DNA from: a virus
Virus record (IMG/VR): IMGVR_UViG_3300025889_018307
Location: 1-64,000 of that record
Direction: 5' to 3' (one strand)
Length of the DNA stretch: 64,000 nt
In this document: positions 18,634 to 58,242 of the stretch, in pieces
Layout of the letters: every line of letters begins with the position of its first letter
Position numbering within the stretch: the stretch's first letter is position 1
Made by a program: the position numbers and the translations under genes
The notes under the pieces: generated by a model
What the model saw: the letters and a program-made list of their open reading frames with translations, nothing else
Databases searched by the model: none
What the model was told of the DNA's origin: nothing

Positions 18634-19604
18634 TGGCTTATTTTCCTAAATCACAAATAAAAGAAAATCAATTTACCCCTGGGGCTGAATGGTATTATGT
18701 TAAGAATAATTCTTCCTACACAGGATTTTATTATGTATTATCTAATGGTAAAGCTTATACAGGTAAAAATCCTAATAATCCCCCAAATGAAGAAATAGTT
18801 AAAAAAGACCCAATTGTTTCTTCTGAAGTAAGAAAAAATGGAGGTATTAATGATAGTTTAAATGAAGTATCATATGCAGATAATTGGGATGGTTATACTT
18901 ACGATAATCAAACACAAAATGCTAAAGATGTAGAAATATATGGAATATTAACTGATACTGATTATAATTTAATTAGATCAAAACCTCAATATTCTCCTAC
19001 ATTTCCTACTCCTGAAGACTATGAAAAAGAAATGTTTGTAAGATATTTTGTATGTAAGATAAATCAATTAGAGTATTTAGAAATTGATAAAGAAACTTAT
19101 AATAATATTTTTACTCAAAATAAAGTATGGGTTTGGGAAGATTATATACCTTTTACTTTAAATTGGTATATAAATGGAGATATTGATAGAGTTTTTAATA
19201 ATAATAAAGGATCTATTTTTATAAAAGAAAAAGAAATAAATAAAAAAGGATTAGAAGATTATTTAGGAAAACAATATTTAGAATATTTTAAATATAAGAA
19301 AGCAAGTAATTTAAATACAAGAGGAGGAGAATTAATTACTCCTACGGGTCAAGATTACATAGGCCCTTATCATATCCATGAATTTCAAGGACCTATGGAG
19401 GGTTCTTCCCACACATCAACAGCTCATAGAAAACTATTTTATAGAAGATTCTACAGGGGTGAAATAGTTGATTCTTTAAATCAAGAGGGAGTAATTGAAA
19501 CTGGAGAAACACAAGCAGTAGAATTTACAACAAACATTTCAACAGATCCTAATTATATACCTCCATCACCTAGTGGAGGATCTTCAAGTGGAGGTGGATA
19601 TTAG
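18633..19604 (+). CDS. Putative baseplate/virion protein
   Basis: Repeated Y.G.Y motifs and PTPEDYE..F.RYF; last gene of the tail operon. Confidence 0.55.
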   Translation: MAYFPKSQIKENQFTPGAEWYYVKNNSSYTGFYYVLSNGKAYTGKNPNNPPNEEIVKKDPIVSSEVRKNGGINDSLNEVSYADNWDGYTYDNQTQNAKDVEIYGILTDTDYNLIRSKPQYSPTFPTPEDYEKEMFVRYFVCKINQLEYLEIDKETYNNIFTQNKVWVWEDYIPFTLNWYINGDIDRVFNNNKGSIFIKEKEINKKGLEDYLGKQYLEYFKYKKASNLNTRGGELITPTGQDYIGPYHIHEFQGPMEGSSHTSTAHRKLFYRRFYRGEIVDSLNQEGVIETGETQAVEFTTNISTDPNYIPPSPSGGSSSGGGY

Positions 19605-19622
19605 ATAAATCCTTCATATATT
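19594..19622 (+). promoter_or_regulatory. Early/middle promoter GTGG-N19-TATATT
   Basis: Matches the 12-site motif; precedes the polA-like gene. Confidence 0.6.
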
Positions 19623-19635
19623 AAAATAAAAAGTT

Positions 19636-20895
19636 ATGTTTTGGTTAGTTGAAAGTAAAGTTCAATTTGAACAATTTTCAAATGCTAATTGGGAAAAAGT
19701 TTTTATAGAAGTAATTCCAAATAGTTATTTAATACATCCTGCACAAAATAATATTTGTGCTTTGTATATTAGACCGTTAGTATCAACTAAAGGATTTATT
19801 GTCCCATTATCACATAGTGAAACTTTAAATATAAATATAACGGAGATAAACACGATGTTACATAAATTTAGTAGCATATATGTGCGTGATAAGAAGGAAT
19901 TTTTACATTATTTACCACTAAAAGGCCTCTTTGACATAAACCAACAAAACCCTCCGTATATACCAGAACTACTACAAACACATCATATTTTTAATAGGAG
20001 ATATCCTAATAAAAAAGATGTAAATAGAATTATACCTATAGTTAAACACTATGAGTATTGTGAAGAAATATATAATAACCTAAAAGACAAAATAAATGGA
20101 AAAATCAATGAATTCTACAATGACAAATCTTCAGTGGTTTTCAACGCCATTGAAAGAAGTGGCATACGAGTTGATAAGTCAAAATTCGAATCGCATTTTC
20201 ATGCTATCGACGGAGATTACATCTACACGCAATACAACTTTAAAACCCTCACAGGAAGACCAAGTAATAAATTCAAAGGAGTAAATTATGCCGCACTTAA
20301 CAAAGAAAACGGACAAAGAGAGTGTTTTATCCCTCGTAATGACAATTTCATTGAGTTTGACATTGGCGCTTATCATCCTACTTTGTTGGCTAAGTTGGTG
20401 GGTTATGATTTTGGTGATAAAGACGTTCATATGGCCTTTGCGGAAATGTATGGAGTGGATTATAAAAAAGCAAAAGAATTAACATTTAAGCAACTGTATG
20501 GAGGAGTGTTTGATCAATACAAGGACTTAGAATTTTTTCAAAAAGTACAAGTATATACTGATAATTTGTGGCAAGAATTTGAGGAAAAGGGCTGGATTGA
20601 ATGTCCTATTTCAAAACATCGATTTGAAAAAGATAAGCTTGGTGAAATGAAACCGCAAAAATTATTGAATTATTTACTGCAAAATTTGGAGACGTCAATG
20701 AATGTTCATATATTGTGGGAAATAATAAGGTTATTAAGAAATAAAAAAACAAAGATAGTTTTATATACTTATGATTCGTTTTTATTTGATGTTGATAAAG
20801 AAGAAGAAGATGTGTTGGGTGAGATAAAGAAACTATTTAATAAATACAAATTACAAATAAAAACATGCTATGGAAGCAACTACAATTTTAAATAA
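19636..20895 (+). CDS. Short divergent family A polymerase
   Basis: T.TGR.S, motif A EFDIGAYHP, motif B AKELTFKQLYG, motif C YTYDSF. Confidence 0.8.
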   Translation: MFWLVESKVQFEQFSNANWEKVFIEVIPNSYLIHPAQNNICALYIRPLVSTKGFIVPLSHSETLNINITEINTMLHKFSSIYVRDKKEFLHYLPLKGLFDINQQNPPYIPELLQTHHIFNRRYPNKKDVNRIIPIVKHYEYCEEIYNNLKDKINGKINEFYNDKSSVVFNAIERSGIRVDKSKFESHFHAIDGDYIYTQYNFKTLTGRPSNKFKGVNYAALNKENGQRECFIPRNDNFIEFDIGAYHPTLLAKLVGYDFGDKDVHMAFAEMYGVDYKKAKELTFKQLYGGVFDQYKDLEFFQKVQVYTDNLWQEFEEKGWIECPISKHRFEKDKLGEMKPQKLLNYLLQNLETSMNVHILWEIIRLLRNKKTKIVLYTYDSFLFDVDKEEEDVLGEIKKLFNKYKLQIKTCYGSNYNFK

Positions 20896-21343
20896 AACTC
20901 CTAATATGTATACTATGGACGATTTTTCGGACATTACTAATCAAAACCTAGGAGATTTGAATAACAAGTTATTTTGTACATTTACAACCTTAGAGAATTT
21001 AGATTTACTTCTAAAATCTATTACAGACAAATACAATATAATGTATAACAAAATATTTGTTTTGTATGTAAAGGAAAATGACGAGTATGTTTGCACATAT
21101 AACATAGATCAAGGTAATATCTCTGACTTACCAGAAAATACAATTTTAGTTCATAGGAAAAAAGAAACAAACACATTGTATACTATCAATGCTTTAAATG
21201 AACTTATCAAAAAATTAAACGGAGGAGTAGTAGACACTAAGTTTCCTATAACTTGGGAACACTACAAAAACTCCGTATTATTAACTCAACATGATGAGTT
21301 AAAACAATTAAAAACAAAAATACATAAAATAATTGAACTATAG
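20870..21343 (+). CDS. Conserved phage hypothetical protein (start possibly 20906 or 20915)
   Basis: KLFCTF, VHRKKETNTLYTINALN. Confidence 0.75.
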   Translation: MEATTILNKTPNMYTMDDFSDITNQNLGDLNNKLFCTFTTLENLDLLLKSITDKYNIMYNKIFVLYVKENDEYVCTYNIDQGNISDLPENTILVHRKKETNTLYTINALNELIKKLNGGVVDTKFPITWEHYKNSVLLTQHDELKQLKTKIHKIIEL

Positions 21344-21344
21344 T

Positions 21345-21373
21345 TTGGTTACCCTAAGTATTTGTTGTATATT
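21345..21373 (+). promoter_or_regulatory. Early/middle promoter TTGG-N19-TATATT
   Basis: ttggttaccctaagtatttgttgtatatt. Confidence 0.75.
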
Positions 21374-21408
21374 ACTCACAGTTATAAAATAAATTAAAAG
21401 TTATTATT

Positions 21409-22233
21409 ATGGATTTAAATCAAATCAAATCGAAGTTAGAGTCACTTCAATCACAAACAAACTCAAATAAAGGAACAGGAAAATCATTATTTTGGAAACC
21501 TTCTGTAGGAAAACAACAAGTTAGAGTTGTTCCTAATAAGTACAATAAGTCATTCCCTTTTACTGAAATGATGTTTTATTATGGTATTGGTCAGAGAGTA
21601 ATGGCTTCTCCCTTGAATTGGGGTGAAAAAGATCCAATTCAAGAATTTACAAAACAATTACGTGCTAGTGGAGATAAAGAAAATTGGTATTTAGCTAAAA
21701 AATTAGATGCTAAAACTCGTATTTTTGCACCTGTAATTGTAAGAGGTGAAGAAGAAGAAGGTGTTAAATTATGGCAATTTGGTAAAGAAGTTTATCAAGC
21801 ATTCTTAAATTTAGCAGCTGATGATGAAATTGGAGATTATACTGATGTATCAGGAGGAAGAGATATTAAATTAACAACTGTAGGTCCTGAAGTAACAGGA
21901 ACTCCTTACAATAAAACTACAATATCTCCATCAATGAAGCAATCACCTATTAGTGATAATGCTACTATAGTTGAAAGAGCTTTAGATACTCAACCTAACC
22001 CAAAAGAAGTATTTAAAAGACTTACTTTTGATGAAGTTAAAGCTAATTTAGAAACATTTTTAAAACCTGAAGGTGGAGAAGAAGATGATATTATCTCTGA
22101 ACCAGCAGTAGCTTTTGATGGTGAATCTAATAATTATTCACTTGAAGGTAAAGATACAACATCTAAAGAAGATAAATTTGATGCTTTATTTGATGATAAA
22201 AAGCCTGCTATTGATGATGATTTACCATTCTAA
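21409..22233 (+). CDS. Single-stranded DNA-binding protein (gp32-like)
   Basis: FWKP, GVKLWQFGK, GDYTD..GRD; acidic DDDLPF tail. Confidence 0.8.
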   Translation: MDLNQIKSKLESLQSQTNSNKGTGKSLFWKPSVGKQQVRVVPNKYNKSFPFTEMMFYYGIGQRVMASPLNWGEKDPIQEFTKQLRASGDKENWYLAKKLDAKTRIFAPVIVRGEEEEGVKLWQFGKEVYQAFLNLAADDEIGDYTDVSGGRDIKLTTVGPEVTGTPYNKTTISPSMKQSPISDNATIVERALDTQPNPKEVFKRLTFDEVKANLETFLKPEGGEEDDIISEPAVAFDGESNNYSLEGKDTTSKEDKFDALFDDKKPAIDDDLPF

Positions 22234-22236
22234 AAT

Positions 22237-23310
22237 ATGGCTAGAAAAAAATCACTTACAGAAGCTGCCTCTAAGGAACTTAGATCAAAATTTGATCTAG
22301 GTGCCTTTAAGGATAAAAAAGGTTTAAGACAAAATGTTAAGTTTAAAGACCAGGAATGGATCCCTTTATCTTCAGCATTTCAAGATGTTACTTCAATCCC
22401 TGGTATTCCTATGGGACATATTGTACTTCTTAGAGGTCATTCAGACACAGGTAAAACTACTGCATTATTAGAAGCAGCAGTATCCGCACAAAAAAGAAAT
22501 ATTCTACCTGTTTTTATTATTACAGAAATGAAATGGTCTTGGGATCATGCTAAAATGATGGGGATGGATGTTAATGAAGTAGTTGATAAAACTACAGGTG
22601 AAATTACTAACTATGAAGGTAATTTTATTTATGTAGATAGAGAAACTATTAATTCTATTGAAGATGTAGCAGGATTTATTTTAGATTTAATGGATGAACA
22701 GAAAAAAGGTAATTTACCCTATGATTTACTTTTCTTGTGGGATTCTATAGGATCAGTACCTTGTGAAATGTCTATTAAATCAAATAAAAATAATAATGAG
22801 TGGAATGCAGGTGCTATGTCAACTCAGTTTGGTAATAGTGTAAATCAACGTATTACATTGTCACGTAAAGAATCATCTCCATATACTAATACACTTGTAT
22901 GTATTAATAAAGTTTGGACGTTAAAAGCAGAATCCCCAATGGGTCAACCTAAATTAATGAATAAAGGAGGATATGCAATGTGGTTTGATTCTACATTTGT
23001 AGTTACCTTTGGTAACGTAATGTCTGCTGGTACCTCTAAAATAAAAGCTATTAAAGATGGTAAACAAGTTGAATTTGCTAAAAGAGTAAATATTCAAATT
23101 GATAAAAACCATATTAATGGCGTTACTACAAGAGGTAAAATTGTTATGACTCCCCATGGATTTATTAATGATAATGACAGAGAATTAAAAGATTATAAAG
23201 ATGCTAGAAAAGATGATTGGGCTGCTATATTAGGTGGTGGTGATTTCAGAGTAGTAGAAGAAGATCAATCCTACACTGATATAACATCTTTTGGAGAAGA
23301 ACCACAATAA
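22237..23310 (+). CDS. uvsX: RecA/UvsX-like recombinase
   Basis: GIPMG, Walker A GHSDTGKTT, WDSIGS, KGG, KNH. Confidence 0.85.
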   Translation: MARKKSLTEAASKELRSKFDLGAFKDKKGLRQNVKFKDQEWIPLSSAFQDVTSIPGIPMGHIVLLRGHSDTGKTTALLEAAVSAQKRNILPVFIITEMKWSWDHAKMMGMDVNEVVDKTTGEITNYEGNFIYVDRETINSIEDVAGFILDLMDEQKKGNLPYDLLFLWDSIGSVPCEMSIKSNKNNNEWNAGAMSTQFGNSVNQRITLSRKESSPYTNTLVCINKVWTLKAESPMGQPKLMNKGGYAMWFDSTFVVTFGNVMSAGTSKIKAIKDGKQVEFAKRVNIQIDKNHINGVTTRGKIVMTPHGFINDNDRELKDYKDARKDDWAAILGGGDFRVVEEDQSYTDITSFGEEPQ

Positions 23311-23312
23311 AT

Positions 23313-23346
23313 TTTGATACCCGGAATATCTTTCGTATATTCCGGG
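23313..23346 (+). promoter_or_regulatory. Early/middle promoter embedded in a 10-bp inverted repeat
   Basis: TTTG-N19-TATATT overlapping cccggaatat-ctttcgt-atattccggg. Confidence 0.7.
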
Positions 23347-23362
23347 AATAAAATCACACCAT

Positions 23363-24394
23363 ATGAAACAAAAAGAACTATTTAGTCTTCTGGACAGTAT
23401 CCAGGAGCAAGGCCCAGAGACTGAAACTCATGAAAGAATATTATTTATAGATGGTTTAAATTTATTCTTTAGAAATTTTGCTGTATTAAATATGGTAAAC
23501 CCTTTAGGTATTCATATTGGGGGTTTAGGTGGATTCTTTCGTTCTTTAGGAGCTATGATTAGACAAATAAATCCTACTCAAGTTTATGTAGTATTTGATG
23601 GTGCTGGTTCTGCTAATAATAGAAAAAATATAATGCCCGAGTATAAATCAGGTAGAGATCTTCAACGTATTACTAATTGGGATGCATTTGATGATAAAGA
23701 TGATGAGGATGATGCTAAGGTAGACCAAATGGTTAGAATCATTCAATATTTAAAGACATTACCTGTTAAAACTGTAAGTATTGATAAAGTAGAAGCTGAT
23801 GATATTATAGCATATTTAAGTAAAACAATTCCCCAACATCCTAAAGATAAAGCATTTATTGTATCTTCAGATAAAGACTTTTTACAATTAGTTAGTGATA
23901 ATATTATTGTTTACCGTCCTATGGAAAAGGAATATTACACAGCTCAAACTGTAATTGATAAATATAAAATATCTCCTCATAATTTTATTTTACACAAAAC
24001 ATTATTAGGTGATAATTCTGATAAAATTAAGGGTGTTAAAGGATTAGGTGAAAAAGGTTTATTAAAAAAATTCCCTGAATTAGTAGAAAAAGATATGAAT
24101 TGGGATGATATATTAAATATTTGTGAAAATAAAATATCTGACCATGTTGTATATGCTAGAATAATTCATGGTCAGGATGATTTAGAAAAAAATTATAAAA
24201 TAATGGATTTAAGTAATCCTATGCTTAGTAAAGAAGACAAAGAATGGTTAGATAAGGTAGTAGAATCAAACGACCTTTCGTATTATCCAGATCAATTCGT
24301 AGCAATGTATAATGAAGACCAAATGGGTGGTTTAATTAGAAATGTTGAGTTTTGGGTTAAAGATTGTTTTCAAAATTTAGTTGTAAAAAAATAG
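23363..24394 (+). CDS. 5'-3' exonuclease / flap endonuclease (T4 RNase H-like)
   Basis: IDGLN, VVFDG, YK.GR, EADD, SSDKD, GDNSD.I.GV.G.G. Confidence 0.92.
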   Translation: MKQKELFSLLDSIQEQGPETETHERILFIDGLNLFFRNFAVLNMVNPLGIHIGGLGGFFRSLGAMIRQINPTQVYVVFDGAGSANNRKNIMPEYKSGRDLQRITNWDAFDDKDDEDDAKVDQMVRIIQYLKTLPVKTVSIDKVEADDIIAYLSKTIPQHPKDKAFIVSSDKDFLQLVSDNIIVYRPMEKEYYTAQTVIDKYKISPHNFILHKTLLGDNSDKIKGVKGLGEKGLLKKFPELVEKDMNWDDILNICENKISDHVVYARIIHGQDDLEKNYKIMDLSNPMLSKEDKEWLDKVVESNDLSYYPDQFVAMYNEDQMGGLIRNVEFWVKDCFQNLVVKK

Positions 24395-24398
24395 TTAT

Positions 24399-25772
24399 AT
24401 GACATTAACAAATTTAAATTCATATGGAACTAGCTTCCAGATTAAGGTAATTTCTTCTTTATTAACACATAAAGAATTTTTAGTAAACATTAACGATATG
24501 TTAGTTGAAGATTACTTTGATAACCAAGCTCATAAATGGATTATTAAAGAAATACTAAGGTATTATGATAAATATCATACTACACCTTCAATGGAAACAT
24601 TAGCTGTTGAATTACAAAAATGTGGAAATGAAGTTTTACAAATATCTATAAAAGAACAACTTAAGGAAGCTTATAAAAGTTCAAGTGATGATTTAAAATA
24701 TGTACAAGAAGAATTTGCTGCCTTTTGTAAAAATCAACAATTAAAAGGAGCTTTATTACAAAGTGTTGATTTATTAAAAGGTGGGGATTATGAATCTATT
24801 AGATCATTAATTAATAATGCTATTAAAGCTGGACAAGATAAAAATATAGGACATGAATATGCTAAAGACGTTGAATCAAGATATAGAGAAGATAGTAGAA
24901 CGACAATTAAAACCCCTTGGGATAAAATTAATCAATTACTTCAGGGAGGCCTCGGAAATGGAGATTTTGGCCTTATATTTGGTAATCCAGGGGGTGGTAA
25001 ATCTTGGTCGTTAGTTGCATTAGGAGGACATGCGGTTAAATTAGGATATAATGTTTTACATTATACTTTAGAATTAGGAGAACAATATGTAGGAAGAAGA
25101 TATGATGCTTTCTTTTCTAGGATAGGTGTAGATAAAATCCAAAAACATAAAGATAAAATTGAAACCTTAATGAGTGATATAAAAGGAAATTTAATAATAA
25201 AAGAATTTCCTACAGGTAAAGCAACAATTTCTACTATAGAAGCGCATATTCAAAAAGTAAAAGATATGGGAATTGAACCTGATTTAATTATAATTGATTA
25301 TGTTGATCTTCTTTCATCAAAAAGAAGGACTGTCGATCGTAAAGGTGAAATTGATGATATTTATACTAGTACAAAAGGATTAGCTCGTGAGTTAGATATC
25401 CCAGTTTGGAGTGTTTCTCAAGTAAATAGAGCTGGTGCTAAAGATAATATTGTAGAGGGAGATAAAGCAGCTGGATCATATGATAAAATTATGATAACAG
25501 ATGTTTGTATTTCTCTTTCTAGACAACGTAAAGATAAAGTAGAAGGAACGGGAAGATTCCATATTATGAAAAATCGATATGGGATGGATGGATTAACATT
25601 TGGAGTTAAAGCAGATACATCTACAGGACATTTTGAAGTATCTAATGATCTTTATAATGAAGAAGAAGATAGTACTGATAATACTCCAATCCCACAAACC
25701 AATAGTTTTAGTGGAATAGATAAATTTGATAGATCTGAGTTGCAAAAGAAATTTTTTGAATTAAATTCGTAA
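24399..25772 (+). CDS. dnaB: DnaB-like replicative helicase
   Basis: GNPGGGKS, YTLEL, IIIDYVD, SQVNR, KNRYG. Confidence 0.92.
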   Translation: MTLTNLNSYGTSFQIKVISSLLTHKEFLVNINDMLVEDYFDNQAHKWIIKEILRYYDKYHTTPSMETLAVELQKCGNEVLQISIKEQLKEAYKSSSDDLKYVQEEFAAFCKNQQLKGALLQSVDLLKGGDYESIRSLINNAIKAGQDKNIGHEYAKDVESRYREDSRTTIKTPWDKINQLLQGGLGNGDFGLIFGNPGGGKSWSLVALGGHAVKLGYNVLHYTLELGEQYVGRRYDAFFSRIGVDKIQKHKDKIETLMSDIKGNLIIKEFPTGKATISTIEAHIQKVKDMGIEPDLIIIDYVDLLSSKRRTVDRKGEIDDIYTSTKGLARELDIPVWSVSQVNRAGAKDNIVEGDKAAGSYDKIMITDVCISLSRQRKDKVEGTGRFHIMKNRYGMDGLTFGVKADTSTGHFEVSNDLYNEEEDSTDNTPIPQTNSFSGIDKFDRSELQKKFFELNS

Positions 25773-30912: not shown

Positions 30913-33906
30913 ATGAAAAAACTACAGTTATTATTACTAACACTTTTAATACCTTTTTTAGGTTACACACAGGGTTCTTGGATTCACATACAATTAATGA
31001 CGGACAATTATCCGTCTGAAACAAGCTGGAATATTACACCTCCTGGTGGTTCACCCATTATTATAGAAAATGGTAGCAATATGCTACCTAATACAATGTA
31101 TGACACTATTGTTCAACTTAGTGGTACAATAATTGCTAGTATATATGATTCTTTTGGTGATGGTTTAGGTTCATCTCAATGGGGTGGAACTGATGGTTGG
31201 TTTATGATTAGTAATTCATGTCAAGATACTTTAATGTATGTTGCAGGAGATTTTGGAGACAGTTTAATACAGACTCTTACTGTTGCTCCCTGCGCCCCAC
31301 CAACAGTTGGTTGTACAGACCCATCTGCATTGAATTATGATTCAACCGCTTATATTTCAGACCCTAGCTCATGTATATTTTCCCCATGTCAGGGTCTTTT
31401 AACTTCTACAGCATCACAAAACTGTTTACCTGGTGGCCAAACACTTGTTATATTTAATTGGACTTTAGATAGTAATACAAATTGTACACCTGTAAAATTT
31501 TGGTATTCAAACGAAAATGGTGTTGGTCCTTTCCAATATGGACTTAATCCTAACGCATTAGATTTTGCAGTTTATGCTGGTAATGGTCAAATGCCACCTA
31601 ATTGGTCAGTAGAACACTATGGTCAAGTTGAATTTTTAGATGGTACTTTATCTGATACTATATTTTATACACCTACTGCTTGTATAGCTGGTTGTACTGA
31701 TCCTACACAAGTATCATACAATCCTTGGGCTACTTATGATGATGGTAGTTGTGCGGGGACAAATTGTGACACAGCAACACAATATCAAATAACAATGGAA
31801 ATTACATTGGACAATTGGCCTGGTGAAACATCATGGATAATGAATAGTTTAGGTGTAGTAGATGAAGCAACCCCGGGAACATATGATTTTAATGATATAG
31901 GTCAAACATATACTTATACTTTTTGTATAGATCAAAACGCAGGATTTGAATTAATTGTAAACGATACTTACGGTGATGGTATGGCTGGTTCTACTTCTGG
32001 TGGTTCTATGGATGGTATGATTGTTATTTATGACTGTAATGGTGATACTATTTGGTATATGGATAATCCTGGATTTGGAAATATATTATATTCAGGACAA
32101 CAATTTGGAACACCTTGTCCTACTATACCCCCAGTTTTAGGATGTACAGATGATGACTATGTAGAATTTAATCCATTAGCTAATGTAGATGATAGTTCAT
32201 GTGTTACACTACACACTTATGGTTGTATAGATTCAACTGCATTTAATTACGATCCAAATGCAACTATAATGGATTTAATACCTGACTGTAATTACTTGTT
32301 AGAAATATTTGATGCAGCAGGAGATGGTTGGGGTAATTCTTATATTGGTGTTTATCAAAATGGTCTTAACCTTGGAACATATACAATGGGTCCTGGTAAT
32401 TATGTTAATTCTTGGAATATTATTTTAGACCCAGGAATTCCAGTAGAAGTATTTTATTTTGAAGTAGGTGGACCACAACAACCACCTCAAGAAGTTCAAT
32501 TCCAAACTTGGCATAATTCATTTAAACTTACAAACGCTGATGGTTTTGTATTAATACATGAAGGTCAAAATCCTTTTGCTAATAATGGTCAAGGAGCACT
32601 ACAAAGCTTTGAAAGTCCATTTTGGACAAAATATGTAGATATACCTTTCTGTGGTAATACTTGCATACCAGTAGTTTTAGGTTGTATGGATACAAATTCA
32701 TTTAATTATGATTCATTAGCAAATGTAGATGATGGTTCATGTATGCCATTCTTATATGGATGTACTAATGTTTTTGCAATAAATTATGATCCACTAGCTA
32801 ATGTTGATGATGGTTCATGCATACCATTTATAAATGGATGTACTGACTCTACAGCAGACAATTATAATTCTCTTGCTAATACTGATGATGGTTCTTGTTA
32901 CTACATTGGTTGTATGGATATAGCTGCTTGTAATTTTGATTCAACAGCGACAGTTAATAATGGATGTCAATATCCAGTACAATATTATGATTGTAATAAT
33001 GTGTGTTTACTGGATTCAGATGGTGATGGTATTTGTGATGAATTAGAAATACCGGGTTGTACTAATCCTATTGCTTTAAACTTTGATATTACAGCAACAG
33101 ACGATGATGGAACATGTATTTTACCAATTTATGGTTGTACTGATCCTTTAGCTTTCAACTACGATCCTTTAGCTAACACAGACAACGGATCTTGCGTACC
33201 TGTAGTATATGGTTGTACTGATCCAACTCAATTTAATTATAATCCACTAGCTAATACAGACAACGGATCTTGTATACCATTTATTTACGGGTGTACTGAT
33301 GCAGCTGCTTTCAATTACGATCCTTTAGCTAATACAAATGACAATAGTTGTTGTTTAATTGCTGGTTGTACTGATCCTTTATCAGTTAACTATAACGAAT
33401 TTGCTTGTTTTGATGATAATTCATGTATAACAGCAGTTCCTGGTTGTACTGATGTTTCAGCTTACAATTACAACCCAGCAGCTAACGTTTCAGATTCAAC
33501 AGCATGTTTATATGATGCTGGTTGTTATGGAGGACCTGGAATACCATATTGGTTAAATGATGGATGTTATGCTTGGGTAATTAGTGTAGATGATTATTGT
33601 TGTACTAACGATTGGGATCCTACATGCCAATCAATGTATGATTATTGTCAATTAGGTTGGCCAACTAATATTCCTGATGTTTCGGCTTTAGGTATAGTTG
33701 TTTATCCTAACCCAACAAGAGGATTAATTCATATAGAAACTAGATTAGAAATAGAAGTTGAAATTTATGATATGACTGGTAAATTATTAATTAAATCTAA
33801 TAATGCTTCTAATAGAATTGATATAAATGATTTCCCTTCAGGTATTTATAATATGACAATAATACATGAAGATAAAAGATATAGTAAAAGAATAATTAAA
33901 AATTAA
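30913..33906 (+). CDS. Cys-rich repeat surface protein with T9SS type A C-terminal sorting domain
   Basis: Sec signal; three D..GDG domains; 14 GC(T/M/I)(D/N)..A.NY-type repeats; C-terminal VYPNP...IYDMTGK...SGIY...KRIIK. Confidence 0.88.
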   Translation: MKKLQLLLLTLLIPFLGYTQGSWIHIQLMTDNYPSETSWNITPPGGSPIIIENGSNMLPNTMYDTIVQLSGTIIASIYDSFGDGLGSSQWGGTDGWFMISNSCQDTLMYVAGDFGDSLIQTLTVAPCAPPTVGCTDPSALNYDSTAYISDPSSCIFSPCQGLLTSTASQNCLPGGQTLVIFNWTLDSNTNCTPVKFWYSNENGVGPFQYGLNPNALDFAVYAGNGQMPPNWSVEHYGQVEFLDGTLSDTIFYTPTACIAGCTDPTQVSYNPWATYDDGSCAGTNCDTATQYQITMEITLDNWPGETSWIMNSLGVVDEATPGTYDFNDIGQTYTYTFCIDQNAGFELIVNDTYGDGMAGSTSGGSMDGMIVIYDCNGDTIWYMDNPGFGNILYSGQQFGTPCPTIPPVLGCTDDDYVEFNPLANVDDSSCVTLHTYGCIDSTAFNYDPNATIMDLIPDCNYLLEIFDAAGDGWGNSYIGVYQNGLNLGTYTMGPGNYVNSWNIILDPGIPVEVFYFEVGGPQQPPQEVQFQTWHNSFKLTNADGFVLIHEGQNPFANNGQGALQSFESPFWTKYVDIPFCGNTCIPVVLGCMDTNSFNYDSLANVDDGSCMPFLYGCTNVFAINYDPLANVDDGSCIPFINGCTDSTADNYNSLANTDDGSCYYIGCMDIAACNFDSTATVNNGCQYPVQYYDCNNVCLLDSDGDGICDELEIPGCTNPIALNFDITATDDDGTCILPIYGCTDPLAFNYDPLANTDNGSCVPVVYGCTDPTQFNYNPLANTDNGSCIPFIYGCTDAAAFNYDPLANTNDNSCCLIAGCTDPLSVNYNEFACFDDNSCITAVPGCTDVSAYNYNPAANVSDSTACLYDAGCYGGPGIPYWLNDGCYAWVISVDDYCCTNDWDPTCQSMYDYCQLGWPTNIPDVSALGIVVYPNPTRGLIHIETRLEIEVEIYDMTGKLLIKSNNASNRIDINDFPSGIYNMTIIHEDKRYSKRIIKN

Positions 33907-43381: not shown

Positions 43382-43573
43382 ATGAGATTACAATTAGAAA
43401 TTTTAGCAAAATGGTTAAAAAACCATAAAGAATCATTTGATGAAAGAGATGGAGCTTTAGAATCAGCAATTAAACGTAGTAAAGAAGATACTATGTTTCA
43501 AATAGGTGATTTACTAGATGAAATCCTACAAATGGATCCTGATCAAATTGATAACGAAAGACGAGATAAATGA
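43382..43573 (+). CDS. Hypothetical protein
   Basis: 63 aa, in the operon. Confidence 0.65.
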   Translation: MRLQLEILAKWLKNHKESFDERDGALESAIKRSKEDTMFQIGDLLDEILQMDPDQIDNERRDK

Positions 43574-44466: not shown

Positions 44467-44606
44467 TAGAATTTATTAAACATGCACTTGGACTTTGTGG
44501 TGAACACTGGCACCCAAATATTTGGACTCTCCTTTTAGGTGGGTTTGGATTACAACAATCATTTTCATATATTAAATATAAAGTAAAAAATTATGGTAAA
44601 GACTAG
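44463..44606 (+). CDS. 47-aa small membrane protein (below the ORF-track cutoff)
   Basis: MIEFIKHALGLCGEHWHPNIWTLLLGGFGL...; ATGA overlap with the uvsE stop. Confidence 0.6.
   Translation: MIEFIKHALGLCGEHWHPNIWTLLLGGFGLQQSFSYIKYKVKNYGKD
44545..44573 (+). promoter_or_regulatory. Early/middle promoter for the dpdA-que operon
   Basis: ttgg-N19-tatatt inside the small ORF. Confidence 0.65.
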
Positions 44607-46229: not shown

Positions 46230-46235
46230 TATAAA

Positions 46236-46307: not shown

Positions 46308-46321
46308 CAAAATAAAAAATT

Positions 46322-46528: not shown

Positions 46529-46543
46529 ATTAAAACAAAAATT

Positions 46544-49631: not shown

Positions 49632-50156
49632 ATGAGTGATAAAAAAGAAAAATTAGGAAACAAATATTGGAATGTACCTTTTGTAAATGAGGTAGAAGAA
49701 TTCAATGAAACATTTGGTAAACCAAATAATTATGAACCAACAATCCCTGAAAAAAAAGAATGGATGTTTGTTTATGATTTTATCCAAGAAGAACTAGCTG
49801 AATATAAAGAAGCTTGTGAGAAAGGTGATATTGTAGAAGTTTTAGATGCATTGTGTGATATTGCTTATGTTTCATTAGGTAATGGAACTATGTTACATGG
49901 TTTAAAAGGTCATATTTGGAAAGCATACCAAGAAGTTCAGGCATCAAATATGTCAAAATCTTGTGTTGATGAAGCTGAAGCTGAATTGACTGTAACTCAA
50001 CGAGCTAAAGAACAAGGTGAAGATTGTCATTGGGAAAAAATAGGTAATCGTTATGTTGTTTATAGAACCCGTGATAGAAAAGTAATGAAATCAGTAAATT
50101 ACTTCAAACCAGACTTACAACAATTTTTCTCAAAATCAGATTTAGATAATGTATAA
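49632..50156 (+). CDS. MazG-like nucleoside triphosphate pyrophosphohydrolase
   Basis: V.EF...F, IQEEL.E, EVLDALCDI.YV, SNMSK, KV.K...YF.PDL. Confidence 0.85.
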   Translation: MSDKKEKLGNKYWNVPFVNEVEEFNETFGKPNNYEPTIPEKKEWMFVYDFIQEELAEYKEACEKGDIVEVLDALCDIAYVSLGNGTMLHGLKGHIWKAYQEVQASNMSKSCVDEAEAELTVTQRAKEQGEDCHWEKIGNRYVVYRTRDRKVMKSVNYFKPDLQQFFSKSDLDNV

Positions 50157-51825
50157 AAAAGCATTTGCAAGAAAGCTTAAAGACAACAAATACTTAATAC
50201 ATTTATGGGAAGATGAAGGCTACAGTAAAGTAGAATGGGATAATCAAGCTTACATTGAATGTGATGAAAGTGAAGCTCAATATACAGGCCTAAATGGAGA
50301 ACCATTAAAAAAAGTAAGAAATTGGAGATCTGATGATTCAAGACTTCATTTTCATGATATGCCTCCTTATCAAAAGTTTCTAGTTGAAAAATATGGTATT
50401 AATGATGAACCATCTACTACTCATAGAGAAATATTTTTTGATATTGAGTGTGAAATGGGAGATGCTTTAACACCAGAATATATTCAATCTGCACCTAAAA
50501 GGATTACTTCAATTGCTTGGTATGATAAACAAGTAGACCAATGGGGAATTGTTATCTTAGATGATGATGGGCAATTAAAACGTACTAAAGCTAAAAATAA
50601 AGAGATTATTCCCTGTAGAACTGAAGAGGAATTATTAGCTAAATTTTTAGAAAGATTTAGGGATATGGATCCTGATATTATAGTAGGATGGAATAGTGAT
50701 TATTTTGATATTCCTTATTTATATTATAGAATGTGTAATGTATTGGGAAGTGATTTTGCTAGACATTTATCTCCTATAGGTTATGTAAGAGAAACACCAT
50801 GGTTTAAAGATCAATACATTCAAATAGCAGGTGTTGAATCTCTTGATTATATGCGTTTACATAAAAAATATAGTTGGGCTGATGAACCATCTATGAGATT
50901 AGATGCTATTGGTGAAAAGTATGTTGGAATGAATAAAATTGAATATGAAGGTAATTTAGATCAATTATTTAAAGATGATATTCAAAAGTTTATTAGGTAT
51001 AATTTTGTTGATGTTGAAATATTAAAATTATTAGATGAAAAATTAGATTATTTAGCATTAACTAAAAACTTATCCCATAAAGGAAAACATAATTATAGTG
51101 AAGTATATGCTAATACTAAAACACAAGATGGTGCTATTTCAGCTTATTTATTAAGTAAAAAAATTATTCCACCTGCTAAAGAACGTAATCCTATATCTAA
51201 AAAAGGATATGCTGGTGGTTATTTATTTTGTCCTCAAGCTGGATTATACAATTATATGTTTGATGAAGATTTAACATCTCTATATCCTTCAATTATTATG
51301 ACTGTTAATATTGGTAAAGAAACAATGGTAGCTAGAATTATTGATGCTGATGATAGAAATAATAGATTAGGACTAAATGATTTAAAATCTAAGGATCCTG
51401 AAGAGGAAATATTAATTGAAAATGTTAAACGTAAACGTACTAAAGTTACTATTGGGGATTTAATAGGATTTATTGAAAAAAATAATTGGGCTATATCAGC
51501 AAATGGTGTTATGTTTAGTACAAATCGTGAATCAGTATTATCAACTATATTAAATAAATGGTTTGATGAAAGAGTATTGTATAAAAATAAAATGAAAAAA
51601 GCATACAAATCAGGTGATAATGAATTAGGAGCTGCTTACCATATGAAACAATATACAATGAAGATTTTATTAAATAGTTTATATGGTGCTACTGCTTTAG
51701 GTTCGTTTAGATATGGTAATGTAGTGTTATCTGAAGCAATTACATTAAGTGGTCAACGCATTATCCAAGAAAGTGCTTTATGCGCTAATAGACACATGAA
51801 TAAAGTAATTAAAGGAAACATATGA
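50149..51825 (+). CDS. Family B DNA polymerase, large subunit (exonuclease plus motifs A and B)
   Basis: FDIE, GWN...FDIPY, YN..DV, DLTSLYPS, KILLNSLYG. Confidence 0.93.
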   Translation: MYKKAFARKLKDNKYLIHLWEDEGYSKVEWDNQAYIECDESEAQYTGLNGEPLKKVRNWRSDDSRLHFHDMPPYQKFLVEKYGINDEPSTTHREIFFDIECEMGDALTPEYIQSAPKRITSIAWYDKQVDQWGIVILDDDGQLKRTKAKNKEIIPCRTEEELLAKFLERFRDMDPDIIVGWNSDYFDIPYLYYRMCNVLGSDFARHLSPIGYVRETPWFKDQYIQIAGVESLDYMRLHKKYSWADEPSMRLDAIGEKYVGMNKIEYEGNLDQLFKDDIQKFIRYNFVDVEILKLLDEKLDYLALTKNLSHKGKHNYSEVYANTKTQDGAISAYLLSKKIIPPAKERNPISKKGYAGGYLFCPQAGLYNYMFDEDLTSLYPSIIMTVNIGKETMVARIIDADDRNNRLGLNDLKSKDPEEEILIENVKRKRTKVTIGDLIGFIEKNNWAISANGVMFSTNRESVLSTILNKWFDERVLYKNKMKKAYKSGDNELGAAYHMKQYTMKILLNSLYGATALGSFRYGNVVLSEAITLSGQRIIQESALCANRHMNKVIKGNI

Positions 51826-52751
51826 AACATTTAGAAGATACTCCATGGTGGATTTGTGATCCAGGTGACACAAATTATTGTGCTTATGTTGATACAGATT
51901 CTAATTACTTTAATGCAGAACCTCTATTAAGACATTTATATCCTAATTTTGATGAAATGTCTGAAAAAGAAAAAGATGATGTTTTAGAAAAGGAAGCACT
52001 TAAATATCAAGACATTATTACTGAAGATTATGATAGGTTAGCTAAAGATTGTTTTAATGTTACTAATCATAGATTAGAAATGAAAACTGAATGTGTAATT
52101 AGATCAGCTTATTTCAGAGCTACAAGGCGTTACGCACAGTGGATTACTAAACAAGAAGGAATTGAAAAAGAATCATTAGATGTTAAAGGATTAGAATTTA
52201 AAAAAGCCAATTTCCCTCCAGTATTTGGTAAGTTTTTTAAAAGTTGTTTAGAACAAGTACTTAAGGGGGTACCCAAACATGAAATTGATTCTCAATTATT
52301 GGAATTTAGAAAACAAATATTAAGTGGAGAAATACCTATTGAGAAAATTGGTAACCCACAAGCAGTAAAAAAACTAAATAAATTCACTGAACGTAAAGCT
52401 AGAGCTGGAGAAATGTTTTCTTCAATAGGTAAAGGAGCTCCTGCAGCTGTTAAAGCAGCTATAATTTATAATGATTTACTAAGATTTTGGAAATTAGATA
52501 AAAAATATAATTATATTACACAAGGGGAGAAAATTAAATGGATTTATTTAAAAAATAATCCTTATAGAATTGAAGCAATTGCTTTCCTAGATTATGATAT
52601 ACCAAAAGAAATTCGTACATTTATCGAGAAATATGCTGATAGGCAAAAAGTATTCGATAGTATACTATTAAATAAGTTAGAAGGATTTTATAATGATCTA
52701 GGATGGGCATTAAGTTTAAATCCTCATAGAAATAAATTTTTTAATTTTTAA
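51822..52751 (+). CDS. Family B DNA polymerase, small subunit (motif C plus thumb)
   Basis: YVDTDS, RRY, VKGLE, GEKIK. Confidence 0.9.
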   Translation: MKHLEDTPWWICDPGDTNYCAYVDTDSNYFNAEPLLRHLYPNFDEMSEKEKDDVLEKEALKYQDIITEDYDRLAKDCFNVTNHRLEMKTECVIRSAYFRATRRYAQWITKQEGIEKESLDVKGLEFKKANFPPVFGKFFKSCLEQVLKGVPKHEIDSQLLEFRKQILSGEIPIEKIGNPQAVKKLNKFTERKARAGEMFSSIGKGAPAAVKAAIIYNDLLRFWKLDKKYNYITQGEKIKWIYLKNNPYRIEAIAFLDYDIPKEIRTFIEKYADRQKVFDSILLNKLEGFYNDLGWALSLNPHRNKFFNF

Positions 52752-56649: not shown

Positions 56650-57573
56650 ATGAAAGAGCATAGTTTACTAGTTGAAAAATATAGACCTACTAATATAAAC
56701 AATTATGTAGGAAATGAAAGTATCAAAAATACTATTAAGGGTTATATTAACCAAAATGATATTCAAAATTTATTATTTTATGGCCCCGCAGGAACAGGAA
56801 AAACAACTTTAGCTAAATTAATTACTAAAAATATTGATTGTGATGTTTTATATATTAATGCATCAGATGAAAGAGGTATTGAAACTATTAGAGACAAAGT
56901 ATCTGGATTTGCAAGTACTATGTCTTTTAAACCTCTAAAAGTAGTTATTTTAGATGAAGCAGATTTTCTGACTATAATGGCTCAAGCATCATTAAGAAAT
57001 GTAATTGAAACATTTTCTCGTTCAACTAGATTTATATTAACTTGTAATTATTTAGAAAGAATAATTGATCCCCTACAATCAAGATGTCAAACATTAAAAA
57101 TAATCCCGCCAGATAAATTAGATATTATTAATCATCTAATGAAAATTACAAATAAGGAAAGTATTAAACATAGTGTAAGTGATTTAGAAACTATTGTAAA
57201 TAACAACTACCCTGATGTGCGTAAAATGCTTAATACTATACAAATATCTACCGTAAATAACACATTAAAATTAGACGAGTCTACATTAGTAGAAAGTAAT
57301 TATATGGATAAGATATTTATTGAACTAAAAAATAAAAAACCTAATTGGAGAACAATTAGGCAAATTATTGCTGATTCAAATGTAAACGACTTTGAAGGAT
57401 TTTATCGTTACCTTTATGATAAAAGTAGTGAATATGCTCCTGGAAAGGAAGGTATGATAGCATATTATATAAATGAATATTCATATCAATCAAATTTTAG
57501 AATAGACAAAGAAGTAAATTGTATGGCTTTAATGTCTAAAATTATAGAAACAATTAAACCAAATATTATTTAA
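56650..57573 (+). CDS. Clamp loader AAA+ subunit (RFC/gp44-like)
   Basis: VEKYRP, GPAGTGKTT, NASDERG, LDEAD, QSRC. Confidence 0.95.
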   Translation: MKEHSLLVEKYRPTNINNYVGNESIKNTIKGYINQNDIQNLLFYGPAGTGKTTLAKLITKNIDCDVLYINASDERGIETIRDKVSGFASTMSFKPLKVVILDEADFLTIMAQASLRNVIETFSRSTRFILTCNYLERIIDPLQSRCQTLKIIPPDKLDIINHLMKITNKESIKHSVSDLETIVNNNYPDVRKMLNTIQISTVNNTLKLDESTLVESNYMDKIFIELKNKKPNWRTIRQIIADSNVNDFEGFYRYLYDKSSEYAPGKEGMIAYYINEYSYQSNFRIDKEVNCMALMSKIIETIKPNII

Positions 57574-57584
57574 AATTATTAATT

Positions 57585-57827
57585 ATGCAAGCGCAACAAC
57601 CAAACATTGATTTAAAAAACACATCAGCTATAGAAACTGAAGGTGGAGGTAGAATTTGGCAACAAGGAGCTTTATTAAGAAAAGTATCTAAATTTGTAAC
57701 AGGAACAGATTCTGATGCTGTTATGCCAATTCCAGTATTTTATGATCCTGAAACAGGTAAAATTTTAGAGGACTCACTTCCTAAAGAATTAAGAGAAGAG
57801 TATAAGGATGTCCTTATTAAATCCTAA
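57585..57827 (+). CDS. Hypothetical protein
   Basis: LRKVSKF.TGT..D...PIPVF. Confidence 0.75.
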   Translation: MQAQQPNIDLKNTSAIETEGGGRIWQQGALLRKVSKFVTGTDSDAVMPIPVFYDPETGKILEDSLPKELREEYKDVLIKS

Positions 57828-58242
57828 AAATATATTTGAATGGCTAGAACATTTAACTTATAAAAAATCTAGCTATAATAGTTTTGAGGAAAAATCTTGG
57901 GAGAACTTTAATGCTTATATGGTTCATAGATTTGTATCCATGTATGAGGGGTATATTGATATTGCTAATATAGCACAAAGGTTCCACCCTACAGATAAAA
58001 GGGGAATTTATAATTTTTATTGTGAAATGTTACCTAAAAAGAAAATGTTTTTAAGGTATATTAAATCAAAAATAAAAACATCCCCCAAAGAAATAAAACA
58101 ATATATTTCTAATTACTATAAATGTAGTTTGGCTGAGGCAAATGAATATATTATATTATTAAATAAGAGTGATATCAAAATAATTTTTGATAAATTAGGA
58201 GTGGAGATTAAAGAACAAAAACAATTACTTAAAAAATTATAA
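57808..58242 (+). CDS. Clamp loader small subunit (gp62-like)
   Basis: F.WL..L...K, F..YM.HRF.SM, LPKKK.F..YIK, YY.CS..EA.EY. Confidence 0.75.
   Translation: MSLLNPKNIFEWLEHLTYKKSSYNSFEEKSWENFNAYMVHRFVSMYEGYIDIANIAQRFHPTDKRGIYNFYCEMLPKKKMFLRYIKSKIKTSPKEIKQYISNYYKCSLAEANEYIILLNKSDIKIIFDKLGVEIKEQKQLLKKL

What the first reader, a model, noticed from the sequence alone, without database searches (positions are those of the whole stretch)
19636..20895. Minimal PolA with lost steric gate and T7-RNAP-like motif C, alongside a complete PolB replisome
Seen: only 419 aa, no 5' nuclease and no clear exonuclease motifs. Motif A DIGAYHPT aligns to Klenow DYSQIELR, placing His at the Glu710 sugar steric gate. 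Motif B keeps K, F and Y (AKELTFKQLYG). Motif C is YTYDSF, closer to T7 RNA polymerase HDSF than to Pol I HDEL. The phage already has PolB, clamp and loader, and no primase is visible in this window. Inference: the enzyme may use ribonucleotides (primase- or RNAP-like), fill Okazaki gaps together with the stand-alone 5' nuclease, or handle modified nucleotides.
Basis: partly seen in the sequence, partly recalled or inferred. Interest (0 to 1): 0.72.

Follow-up and report, generated by a model that had tools for sequence, protein, structure and literature searches.

The report
Thumb-less second phage DNA polymerase (divPolA1)
This gene encodes a stripped-down Pol I-like DNA polymerase that large marine phages carry beside their main replicase; the family was described in 2024, so the gene is a new member rather than a new kind, though its altered sugar-gate residue and its always-linked small partner gene have not been studied.

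Summary
The ORF at 19636-20895 (+, 419 aa) is real and under purifying selection. It is a family A DNA polymerase by fold: Bst Pol I large fragment, Z 26.8, 390 of 419 residues aligned. His247 aligns with the Pol I steric-gate Glu710 (His in 99 of 101 family members). Lys/Phe/Tyr of motif B are kept. Motif C reads Y-D-S where Pol I has H-D-E. I add that about 90 residues of the thumb are missing, the exonuclease-like domain lacks an intact catalytic set, and Tyr276 replaces Arg754.

The family is already in print as "divPolA1" (Virol J 2024, PMC11348598): an extra polymerase in immuto-like phages, with truncated thumb and dead exonuclease. This scan also met it before on other genomes (e1-6023868).

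The RNAP/primase reading is weakened. The family profile shows no similarity to T7 RNAP, and a DnaG-like primase is present in 7 of 7 complete relatives. This 84-kb record is only about 52% complete. A link to 7-deazaguanine is not general (QueC in 2 of 5 relatives).

My best reading is an accessory, distributive DNA polymerase within the conserved module miniPolA-orf157-gp32-RecA-FEN-DnaB. Its sugar selectivity is untested. The 157-aa downstream gene was adjacent in 99 of 99 loci with room and is more conserved than the polymerase.

The parts
19636..20895 (+). divPolA1-type minimal family A DNA polymerase, 419 aa
   Evidence: ORF. AF2 model pLDDT 97, pTM 0.93. Foldseek: Klenow 1kfd, E 2.2e-17. 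VIA-align: Bst large fragment, Z 26.8, rmsd 3.7, 390 aligned. 37% identical to immuto gene 1, E 9e-84.
19636..20148 (+). N-terminal 3'-5' exonuclease-like domain, probably inactive (about aa 1-171)
   Evidence: hhalign to E. coli Pol I 330-556: probability 58.6%, E 9.6e-5. It places D355 opposite Y31, E357 opposite I33 and D424 opposite D85; Y497 and D501 fall in a deleted stretch. No conserved acidic quartet. PMC11348598 reports the same for the family.
20149..20244 (+). Thumb remnant: IERSGIRVD, then about 20 residues where Pol I has about 110
   Evidence: Query 188 aligns with Pol I 556 and query 190 with Pol I 649. About 90 thumb residues have no counterpart.
20245..20304 (+). TGR motif region with invariant R208 (=R668) and N217 (=N675)
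20359..20376 (+). Motif A, DIGAYH: catalytic D242 (=D705) and H247 at the steric-gate position (=E710)
20461..20502 (+). Motif B (O-helix): Y276 (=R754), K280 (=K758), F284 (=F762), Y288 (=Y766)
   Evidence: Position 276 over 101 sequences: Tyr 68, Ile 12, Arg 10, other 11.
20764..20790 (+). Motif C, YTYDSFLFD: Y379 (=H881), catalytic D380 (=D882), S381 (=E883), D385 (=E887)
20870..21343 (+). orf157, a conserved small protein of unknown fold family; its start overlaps the polymerase gene by 26 nt
   Evidence: Adjacent downstream in 79 of 79 and 20 of 20 loci with room. 55-66% identical where the polymerase is 31-48% identical. dN/dS 0.01-0.14. AF2 pLDDT 81. No family or fold match.
21409..22233 (+). 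gp32-like ssDNA-binding protein
   Evidence: PF08804, E 3.5e-12. phrog_1192.
22237..23310 (+). RecA/UvsX-like recombinase
   Evidence: PF00154, E 3.5e-7. phrog_97 and phrog_8337.
23363..24394 (+). Stand-alone 5'-3' exonuclease (FEN)
   Evidence: PF02739, E 1.2e-33. phrog_107.
24399..25772 (+). DnaB-like replicative helicase
   Evidence: PF03796, E 1.1e-19. phrog_19, E 3e-82.
50149..52751 (+). The 'regular' replicase: family B DNA polymerase split into two ORFs (558 + 309 aa) with an ATGA overlap at 51822-51825
   Evidence: PF00136, E 4.7e-24, and PF03104 in ORF 1; divDNApol in ORF 2.
56650..58242 (+). Clamp-loader large (56650-57573) and small (57808-58242) subunits
   Evidence: phrog_168, E 2.7e-78, and phrog_225, E 2.9e-14. 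PF13177.

Best explanation
The gene is a member of the published divPolA1 family. It is a catalytically competent, primer- and template-dependent family A DNA polymerase that has lost proofreading and about 90 residues of its thumb, and that the phage carries in addition to its processive replicase (here a split PolB with a clamp loader).

It is the first gene of a conserved six-gene module: miniPolA, orf157, gp32 SSB, RecA/UvsX, FEN, DnaB. I infer that it does short, distributive DNA synthesis on lagging-strand or recombination intermediates. It would fill gaps or displace primers ahead of the stand-alone FEN (together a split Pol I), and/or extend RNA primers or invading 3' ends before hand-off to the replicase.

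Shown here: the fold, the catalytic residues, the remodelled sugar/triphosphate pocket (E710->His, R754->Tyr, H881->Tyr, E883->Ser/Ala), the synteny, and co-occurrence with a regular polymerase and a DnaG-like primase.

Inferred: the activity, the role, and any contact with orf157.
For: Fold: Klenow, E 2.2e-17; Bst large fragment, Z 26.8 over 390 of 419 residues.

Invariant in 101 of 101 sequences: R208, D242, K280, E352, D380, D385. Q349, Y346 and N217 are each kept in 100 of 101. These map to Pol I R668, D705, K758, D882, Q849 and N675, the residues that read the primer-template and carry out catalysis.

Family identity: 37% identical to immuto gene 1, which is the type member of divPolA1.

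Module synteny: immuto; 79 of 79 close loci; 20 of 20 distant loci; Microcystis phage Mel-JY01 and a 484-kb phage.

A regular polymerase always accompanies it:
- PolB in this record.
- PolB in 4 of 5 other genomes tested.
- A full PolA with exonuclease in immuto, the fifth.
The paper likewise reports a regular polymerase of family A, B or C.

Purifying selection: dN/dS 0.08-0.29.
Against: No biochemistry exists for any member. The 'divPolA1' search found only the 2024 paper and its preprint versions.

Four residues that contact the sugar or triphosphate in Pol I are replaced, so the substrate may not be an ordinary dNTP.

Pfam DNA_pol_A scores only 14.8 bits against a cut-off of 34.3.

The authors of PMC11348598 read the conserved context as pointing to a role in replication proper, and they find the context of the regular polymerases less clear.

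T4-type replisomes do not need a second polymerase for Okazaki maturation (established knowledge, recalled). So the need for this enzyme is unexplained.
Confidence: 0.6

Rival explanations
1. A ribonucleotide-tolerant or primer-independent polymerase. With orf157 as a nucleic-acid-binding subunit, it would act as a PolA-based primase or initiator, analogous to the CcPol-MP 'PolA-SSB' primases.
For: The steric-gate Glu is replaced by His in 99 of 101 members.

There is a precedent: a truncated PolA plus a small partner encoded next to it is a primase.

The partner gene is always adjacent and overlaps the polymerase gene.

The helix before motif A is 4 residues shorter than Pol I 682-689 (K223=V681 and R228=R690; helix 227-230 in the model). 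This is the feature that PMC10061031 and PMC7581432 link to room for an initiating triphosphate.

Three singleton metagenomic proteins join a polymerase C-terminus to orf157 in one frame.
Against: A DnaG-like primase is present in 7 of 7 complete relatives.

CcPol keeps the E710 and F762 equivalents and uses dNTPs, so the His is not part of that precedent.

The family profile shows no similarity to T7 RNAP.

The orf157 model is alpha+beta, not an evident OB fold.

Here the exonuclease-like domain is whole, whereas CcPol-type enzymes are N-terminally truncated.

The fusions are singletons and may be assembly errors; one joins orf157 to gp32 instead.
Confidence: 0.12
2. divPolA1 is the true replicative polymerase of these phages, and the 'regular' PolA, PolB or PolC has another role.
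For: It sits in a conserved context with the helicase and SSB, while the regular polymerase is swapped between families and lies among chaperonin and nucleotide-metabolism genes.
Against: It has no proofreading and a truncated thumb. That fits poorly with copying genomes of about 160 kb.

A clamp loader lies near PolB.

It is the fastest-evolving gene of its module: 31-48% identity against 54-75% for RecA and DnaB.
Confidence: 0.12
3. A polymerase specialised for 7-deazaguanine (modified) nucleotides.
For: This phage and immuto carry DpdA-like, QueC, QueD, QueE and FolE genes. The nucleotide pocket is remodelled.
Against: QueC is found in only 2 of 5 other genomes carrying the gene. It is absent from a 100%-complete relative, from Mel-JY01 and from the 484-kb phage. 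DpdA-type systems modify DNA after synthesis (established knowledge, recalled).
Confidence: 0.03
4. A catalytically dead structural or regulatory subunit.
For: Several Pol I nucleotide-binding residues (R754, H881, E883, E710) are replaced.
Against: Both catalytic Asp residues, K758, R668 and Q849 are invariant or nearly so across 101 sequences that share only 30-58% identity with the query.
Confidence: 0.03

Closest known systems
divPolA1 (PMC11348598, Virol J 2024;21:200)
   Same: A homologue of the type member, immuto gene 1 (37% identity, E 9e-84). It shares the same downstream replication genes, occurs in addition to a regular polymerase, keeps the palm residues, has a truncated thumb and has a degenerate exonuclease.
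   Different: The paper lists 14 phages. The family is far larger: 1177 clusters at 50% identity. It also reaches a Microcystis phage and a 484-kb phage. The paper's text does not mention the steric gate (0 occurrences of 'steric'). I could not see its figures or supplements, so I cannot tell whether orf157 or the His is marked there.
Pol I large fragment (Klenow / Bst)
   Same: The whole chain superposes (Z 26.8). TGR, motif A Asp, motif B K/F/Y, Q849 and motif C Asp are kept. As in Bst and Taq, the exonuclease fold is kept without activity (the status of Bst and Taq is recalled).
   Different: About 90 thumb residues are missing and the fingers are shorter. E710->His, R754->Tyr, H881->Tyr, E883->Ser/Ala. 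There is no fused 5' nuclease. Pfam scores below its cut-off.
CcPol-MP / PolA-SSB primases (PMC7581432, PMC10061031)
   Same: A reduced PolA encoded just upstream of a small uncharacterised protein, and near a helicase.
   Different: CcPol lacks most or all of the exonuclease domain and keeps the E710 and F762 equivalents, and MP is an OB fold. Here the exonuclease fold is whole, the gate residue is His, the partner model is alpha+beta, and a DnaG-like primase coexists.
T7-type single-subunit RNA polymerase
   Same: Same superfamily. Ser follows the motif C Asp in 69 of 101 members.
   Different: No profile similarity (probability 0.1%). The N-terminal domain is exonuclease-like, not a promoter-binding domain. 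Tyr, not His, precedes the Asp.
divPolA2 (same paper)
   Same: Another divergent extra PolA of phages that also have a regular polymerase.
   Different: divPolA2 has an unrelated N-terminal domain, a variable gene context and RNAP-like structural hits. None of this applies here.

Membership tests
divPolA1 | Homology to the divergent PolA of Flavobacterium phage vB_FspM_immuto | tested here: met
   tblastn: 37.4% identity over 99% of the query, E 9e-84.
divPolA1 | Encoded in addition to a regular DNA polymerase | tested here: met
   Split PolB at 50149-52751.
divPolA1 | Conserved replication genes downstream | tested here: met
   orf157, gp32, RecA, FEN and DnaB follow, as in immuto.
divPolA1 | Palm catalytic residues conserved | tested here: met
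   D242 and D380 in 101 of 101 sequences; they map to D705 and D882.
divPolA1 | Thumb truncated | tested here: met
   About 2 residues lie opposite Pol I 556-649.
divPolA1 | 3'-5' exonuclease inactivated | tested here: met
   No conserved DEDD set. In this protein Y31, I33 and D85 lie opposite D355, E357 and D424, and Exo III is deleted. The alignment confidence is low (probability 58.6%).
divPolA1 | Host genome of 155-190 kb | tested here: inconclusive
   The record is an 84-kb fragment, about 52% complete. Complete relatives are 158-183 kb.
Family A DNA polymerase (Pol I-like) | Klenow-type fold | tested here: met
Family A DNA polymerase (Pol I-like) | Pfam PF00476 above its gathering score | tested here: not met
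   14.8 bits against a cut-off of 34.3.
Family A DNA polymerase (Pol I-like) | Steric-gate Glu in motif A | tested here: not met
   His in 99 of 101 sequences, Gln in 2.
Family A DNA polymerase (Pol I-like) | H-D-E in motif C and Arg754 in motif B | tested here: not met
   Y-D-S/A in motif C. Position 276 is Tyr in 68 and Arg in 10 of 101.
Family A DNA polymerase (Pol I-like) | Templated dNTP incorporation | not testable with these tools
   Needs an enzyme assay.
T7-like single-subunit RNAP | Sequence-profile relationship closer than to DNA polymerases | tested here: not met
   hhalign probability 0.1% against T7 RNAP, 94.6-95.6% against E. coli Pol I.
T7-like single-subunit RNAP | Structural match to RNAP chains | tested here: inconclusive
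   No RNAP appears among the 50 rows shown by either Foldseek or VIA-align. Lower ranks were not shown.
PolA-SSB primase (CcPol-MP) | N-terminally truncated polymerase | tested here: not met
   A whole exonuclease-like domain aligns to Bst 300-875.
PolA-SSB primase (CcPol-MP) | OB-fold partner | tested here: inconclusive
   The orf157 model is alpha+beta with strands and three helices. Best PDB matches are below noise.
PolA-SSB primase (CcPol-MP) | Stable complex and de novo synthesis | not testable with these tools
An assay is needed.

The most novel reading that the evidence does not exclude
divPolA1 and the always-adjacent orf157 form a two-subunit polymerase. Its remodelled sugar/triphosphate pocket (His for the gate Glu; Tyr for Arg754 and His881) and its shortened pre-motif-A helix would let it accept ribonucleotides or start chains without a primer. 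That would make it a second, PolA-based initiator that launches DNA synthesis at recombination or origin intermediates, beside the DnaG primase, in an abundant group of marine phages.
Probability: 0.12. Interest if true: 0.75.

Novelty: new member of a known kind. Interest (0 to 1): 0.35.

Why it matters
The family is very common in marine and freshwater viromes: 6544 clusters at 90% identity scored E<=1e-3 among 8000 candidates, and 1177 clusters at 50% identity. It is kept while the main replicase is swapped between families, so it must do something the replicase cannot. It is a natural experiment on how small a Pol I-type enzyme can be.

I know of no other natural one, but that rests on recall plus the passages I read in PMC10201439. 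A simple assay of dNTP versus rNTP use, with and without orf157, would settle its role and might yield a compact enzyme useful as a tool.

For this scan the verdict is sober. The kind is already published and has been met before on other genomes.

Tried and rejected
- PDB sequence search with the single protein found nothing relevant (FtsA, E 2.5).
- Weak family hits were rejected as noise: DUF6140 (E 0.25) and NCBIfam DpoZ (17.3 bits against a cut-off of 500).
- T7 RNAP profile comparison showed no relationship.
- Primase families Toprim_2 and Zn_ribbon_DnaG, and the immuto primase protein, found nothing in the own record. Because the record is about 52% complete, I treat this as uninformative. 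In a complete relative the primase lies about 93 kb from the polymerase gene, which would be beyond this record's end.
- orf157 has no Pfam, PHROG or NCBIfam family.
- orf157 fold searches gave nothing usable: Foldseek PDB best E 0.15; VIA-align wide best Z 6.2 to the SV40 T-antigen origin-binding domain, below the tool's noise level of 7-8; BFVD returned only an uncharacterised homologue; the protein atlas gave no usable hit.
- The search for fused forms of orf157 returned 8 longer proteins. I fetched 6, all singletons: 3 carry part of the polymerase, 1 carries gp32, and 2 carry unrelated N-terminal parts. I give them little weight.
- RNA-library contigs of 4 runs from 3 studies lie on 19000-23400, including a 640-nt contig across the polymerase/orf157 junction. 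Contigs in an RNA library do not prove transcription, and many are from relatives (90-95% alike), so I draw no conclusion.
- I did not identify a sliding clamp. The ORF at 52754-53500 has no family hit.
- I considered orf157 as a gp59- or UvsY-like loader or mediator, because it sits just upstream of the gp32 gene as gene 59 does in T4 (gene order recalled). No tool result supports or excludes this.
- Supplementary files and figures of PMC11348598 and PMC10201439 were not available. They may already show the neighbour gene or the His.
Full report
**What is there**

The window is the first 64 kb of an 84,310-bp IMG/VR virus record that CheckV rates about 52% complete. All the genes discussed here lie on the + strand. 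The ORF at 19636-20895 encodes 419 aa.

Single-sequence family searches are weak:
- Pfam DNA_pol_A scores E 0.014 and 14.8 bits, against a cut-off of 34.3.
- PHROG 17 'DNA polymerase' scores E 1.3e-7.
- The PDB sequence search finds nothing.

The family itself is large and compact. A search of 1.84 billion cluster representatives gave 1177 matches at E<=1e-3, 842 at E<=1e-10 and 501 at E<=1e-30. Among the best 150, the full-length matches are about 400-470 aa; the shorter entries cover only part of the query. A word-indexed search gave 6544 clusters at 90% identity among the 8000 candidates scored; where a source is named, it is a marine or other environmental metagenome.

I aligned the query with 100 of the 150 listed representatives to make alignment A1. 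I kept those of about 400 aa or more and dropped fragments. They are 30-58% identical to the query.

**Fold**

An AlphaFold2 model built from A1 has mean pLDDT 97 and pTM 0.93.

- Foldseek against the PDB returns Klenow fragment first (1kfd, E 2.2e-17, TMq 0.75). All 50 rows shown are family A DNA polymerases: Pol I of several bacteria, apicoplast Pol, Pol theta, DpoZ and phage G20c Pol I.
- VIA-align gives Z 26.8, rmsd 3.7 A and 390 aligned residues against Bst large fragment. Model residues 1-419 align with chain residues 300-875.

So the protein is a whole 'large fragment': an exonuclease-like domain plus a polymerase domain, with no 5' nuclease domain.

**Residues**

hhalign of A1 against E. 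coli Pol I gives probability 94.6-95.6% and E 7e-8 to 1e-8. Counts are over the 101 sequences of A1.

| This protein | E. coli Pol I | Conservation (of 101) |
|---|---|---|
| R208 | R668 | 101 |
| N217 | N675 | 100 |
| D242 | D705 | 101 |
| H247 | E710 | His 99, Gln 2 |
| Y276 | R754 | Tyr 68, Ile 12, Arg 10 |
| K280 | K758 | 101 |
| F284 | F762 | 93 |
| Y288 | Y766 | 98 |
| Q349 | Q849 | 100 |
| Y379 | H881 | Tyr 98, Phe 3 |
| D380 | D882 | 101 |
| S381 | E883 | Ser 69, Ala 31, Gly 1 |
| D385 | E887 | 101 |

Weak alignments to T7 DNA polymerase (H247=E480) and to the full PolA of phage immuto (H247=E511) place the His the same way.

It can also be widened: four Pol I residues that touch the sugar or triphosphate of the incoming nucleotide are replaced together. 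What those residues do in Pol I is established knowledge that I recall. I saw the Astatke 1998 paper only as a reference entry.

**Thumb and exonuclease**

The motif IERSGIRVD (20149-20175) aligns with the equivalent Pol I segment ending near residue 556. The next aligned residue, 190, matches Pol I 649. About 90 residues of thumb therefore have no counterpart.

The N-terminal 188 residues align to Pol I 330-556 only weakly (probability 58.6%, E 9.6e-5). In that alignment the catalytic D355, E357 and D424 face Y31, I33 and D85, and Y497 and D501 fall in a deleted stretch. No column in the N-terminal domain shows a conserved acidic quartet. The exact pairing is uncertain, but the lack of an intact DEDD set is not.

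**Already in print**

A full-text search led to PMC11348598 (Virol J 2024;21:200). I read its section 'Two novel phage PolAs' in full, plus passages elsewhere.

It names 'divPolA1' in Flavobacterium phage vB_FspM_immuto and 13 related genomes of 155-190 kb. According to the paper, divPolA1:
- is encoded in addition to a regular polymerase of family A, B or C;
- has conserved replication genes downstream;
- keeps the palm residues;
- has a truncated thumb;
- has an inactivated exonuclease.

The window's protein is 37% identical to immuto gene 1 (E 9e-84) and shares its gene order. It is therefore a new member of that family.

The word 'steric' does not occur in the paper. 'divPolA1' occurs in 3 held papers: this one and its preprint, which is held in two copies. 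The 2023 reclassification of PolAs into 19 clusters (PMC10201439) names no cluster of this kind in what I read: abstract, outline, sections 26 and 32, and passages.

Notes from this scan show the same gene seen on other genomes, and one follow-up reached the same verdict (e1-6023868). I saw those notes after my own analysis.

**Context and the primase question**

Downstream of the polymerase gene lie:
- orf157 (20870-21343);
- gp32-like SSB;
- RecA/UvsX-like recombinase;
- a stand-alone 5'-3' exonuclease (FEN);
- DnaB-like helicase;
- ribonucleotide reductase.

Further on are an ATP-dependent ligase, UvdE, a 7-deazaguanine gene set, a PolB split into two ORFs, Hsp20, GroES/GroEL and two clamp-loader subunits.

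No primase was found in the record. The complete immuto genome, however, has an annotated DnaG primase; its Toprim region matches TIGR01391 at E 4.2e-13. Homologues of that primase occur in G002, G003, G004, G006, Mel-JY01 and LR756508, and in immuto itself, which makes 7 of 7 complete genomes. They occur in 0 of 4 fragments: G000, G001, G005 and G007.

The regular polymerase is PolB in 4 of 5 other genomes tested. In immuto it is a 777-aa PolA with an exonuclease domain, and that PolA has no homologue in this record.

QueC occurs in 2 of 5 other genomes carrying the gene, so a tie to deazaguanine DNA is not general.

**The partner gene**

orf157 starts 26 nt before the polymerase stop codon. 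It was adjacent downstream in 79 of 79 loci that had at least 520 nt of room. Those 79 come from 83 loci analysed: 80 close IMG/VR relatives plus immuto, Mel-JY01 and the 484-kb phage. It was also adjacent in 20 of 20 loci with room among 21 loci of two distant clades.

It is always better conserved than the polymerase:

| Comparison | orf157 identity | Polymerase identity |
|---|---|---|
| Distant clades | 55-66% | 31-48% |
| immuto | 57% | 37% |

dN/dS is 0.01-0.14 for orf157 and 0.08-0.29 for the polymerase.

Its alignment (A2, 21 sequences) has 40 invariant columns, including an H-R-K-K patch and many Asn, Thr and Tyr residues. The model (pLDDT 81) is alpha+beta. No family or fold match rises above noise.

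Whether it binds the polymerase, gp32 or the helicase is open. The complex predictor was unavailable.

**Mechanism**

The primer-terminus and template readers (R668, N675 and Q849 equivalents), both catalytic Asp residues and the O-helix Lys, Phe and Tyr are kept. The simplest reading is therefore a templated, primer-dependent DNA polymerase.

Without a thumb tip or proofreading it should be distributive and error-prone, which suits short patches. Its fixed place beside SSB, recombinase, FEN and helicase, while the big polymerase is swapped between families, points to work on lagging-strand or recombination intermediates. Candidate tasks are gap filling and flap creation for the FEN (a Pol I split into two genes), extension of DnaG primers, or extension of invading 3' ends. 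All of this is inference.

The His at the gate is about as bulky as Glu and sits beside the retained Tyr288. It may keep ribonucleotides out, or it may hydrogen-bond a 2'-OH. Sequence cannot tell which.

One weak lead favours the bolder reading. The segment before motif A is 4 residues shorter than Pol I 682-689, and the model has only a 4-residue helix there. The CcPol papers link a shortening of this kind to room for an initiating triphosphate.

**Verdict**

- The kind is already published and has already been met in this scan.
- What remains unstudied is the altered nucleotide pocket and the linked small gene.

Noticed in passing
50149-51825 and 51822-52751: The family B polymerase is split into two ORFs (558 + 309 aa) that overlap in ATGA. 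The same split (560 + 313 aa frames) is seen in a complete relative, G003, while Microcystis phage Mel-JY01 has one 855-aa frame.
   Followed up: partly
20870-21343: orf157 is one of the most conserved genes of the module (40 invariant columns in 21 sequences). It has a basic H-R-K-K patch and no known family or fold. It sits where T4 has gene 59, upstream of gene 32 (T4 order recalled), so a helicase-loader or mediator role is an alternative to a polymerase subunit.
   Followed up: partly
44593-50156: A 7-deazaguanine gene set: DpdA-like (38% identical to immuto DpdA), QueC, QueD, QueE, a staphylococcal-nuclease-like gene, FolE and a MazG-like pyrophosphohydrolase, placed just before polB. 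tblastn found no QueF homologue in the record. Another note of this scan covers it (e1-6119282).
   Followed up: partly
L005:24855-27188 (immuto gene 71): Immuto's regular polymerase is a full PolA with an exonuclease domain (PF00476, E 2.8e-56). It has no homologue in this record, which has PolB instead. This is a replicase swap between phages that share the divPolA1 module, as the 2024 paper reports.
   Followed up: yes
30913-33906: A 997-aa protein ends in a T9SS C-terminal sorting domain (PF18962, E 2.8e-13). This points to a Bacteroidota host.
   Followed up: no
53577-56339: The phage encodes Hsp20, GroES and GroEL next to the replicase region. The 2024 paper notes chaperonins near the regular polymerases.
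   Followed up: no
40228-41511 and 43570-44466: An ATP-dependent DNA ligase and a UvdE UV-damage endonuclease. With the FEN and the mini polymerase, they would make a complete short-patch repair or Okazaki-maturation set.
   Followed up: no
P0271, P0273, P0275 (metagenomic proteins): Singleton proteins in which part of a divPolA1 continues in frame into orf157. P0274 joins orf157 to gp32. These may be real fusions or assembly errors.
   Followed up: partly
19000-23400: Contigs from four metatranscriptome runs (3 studies) lie on the module; many are 90-95% alike and so come from relatives. DNA holders are labelled both freshwater and seawater metagenomes.
   Followed up: partly
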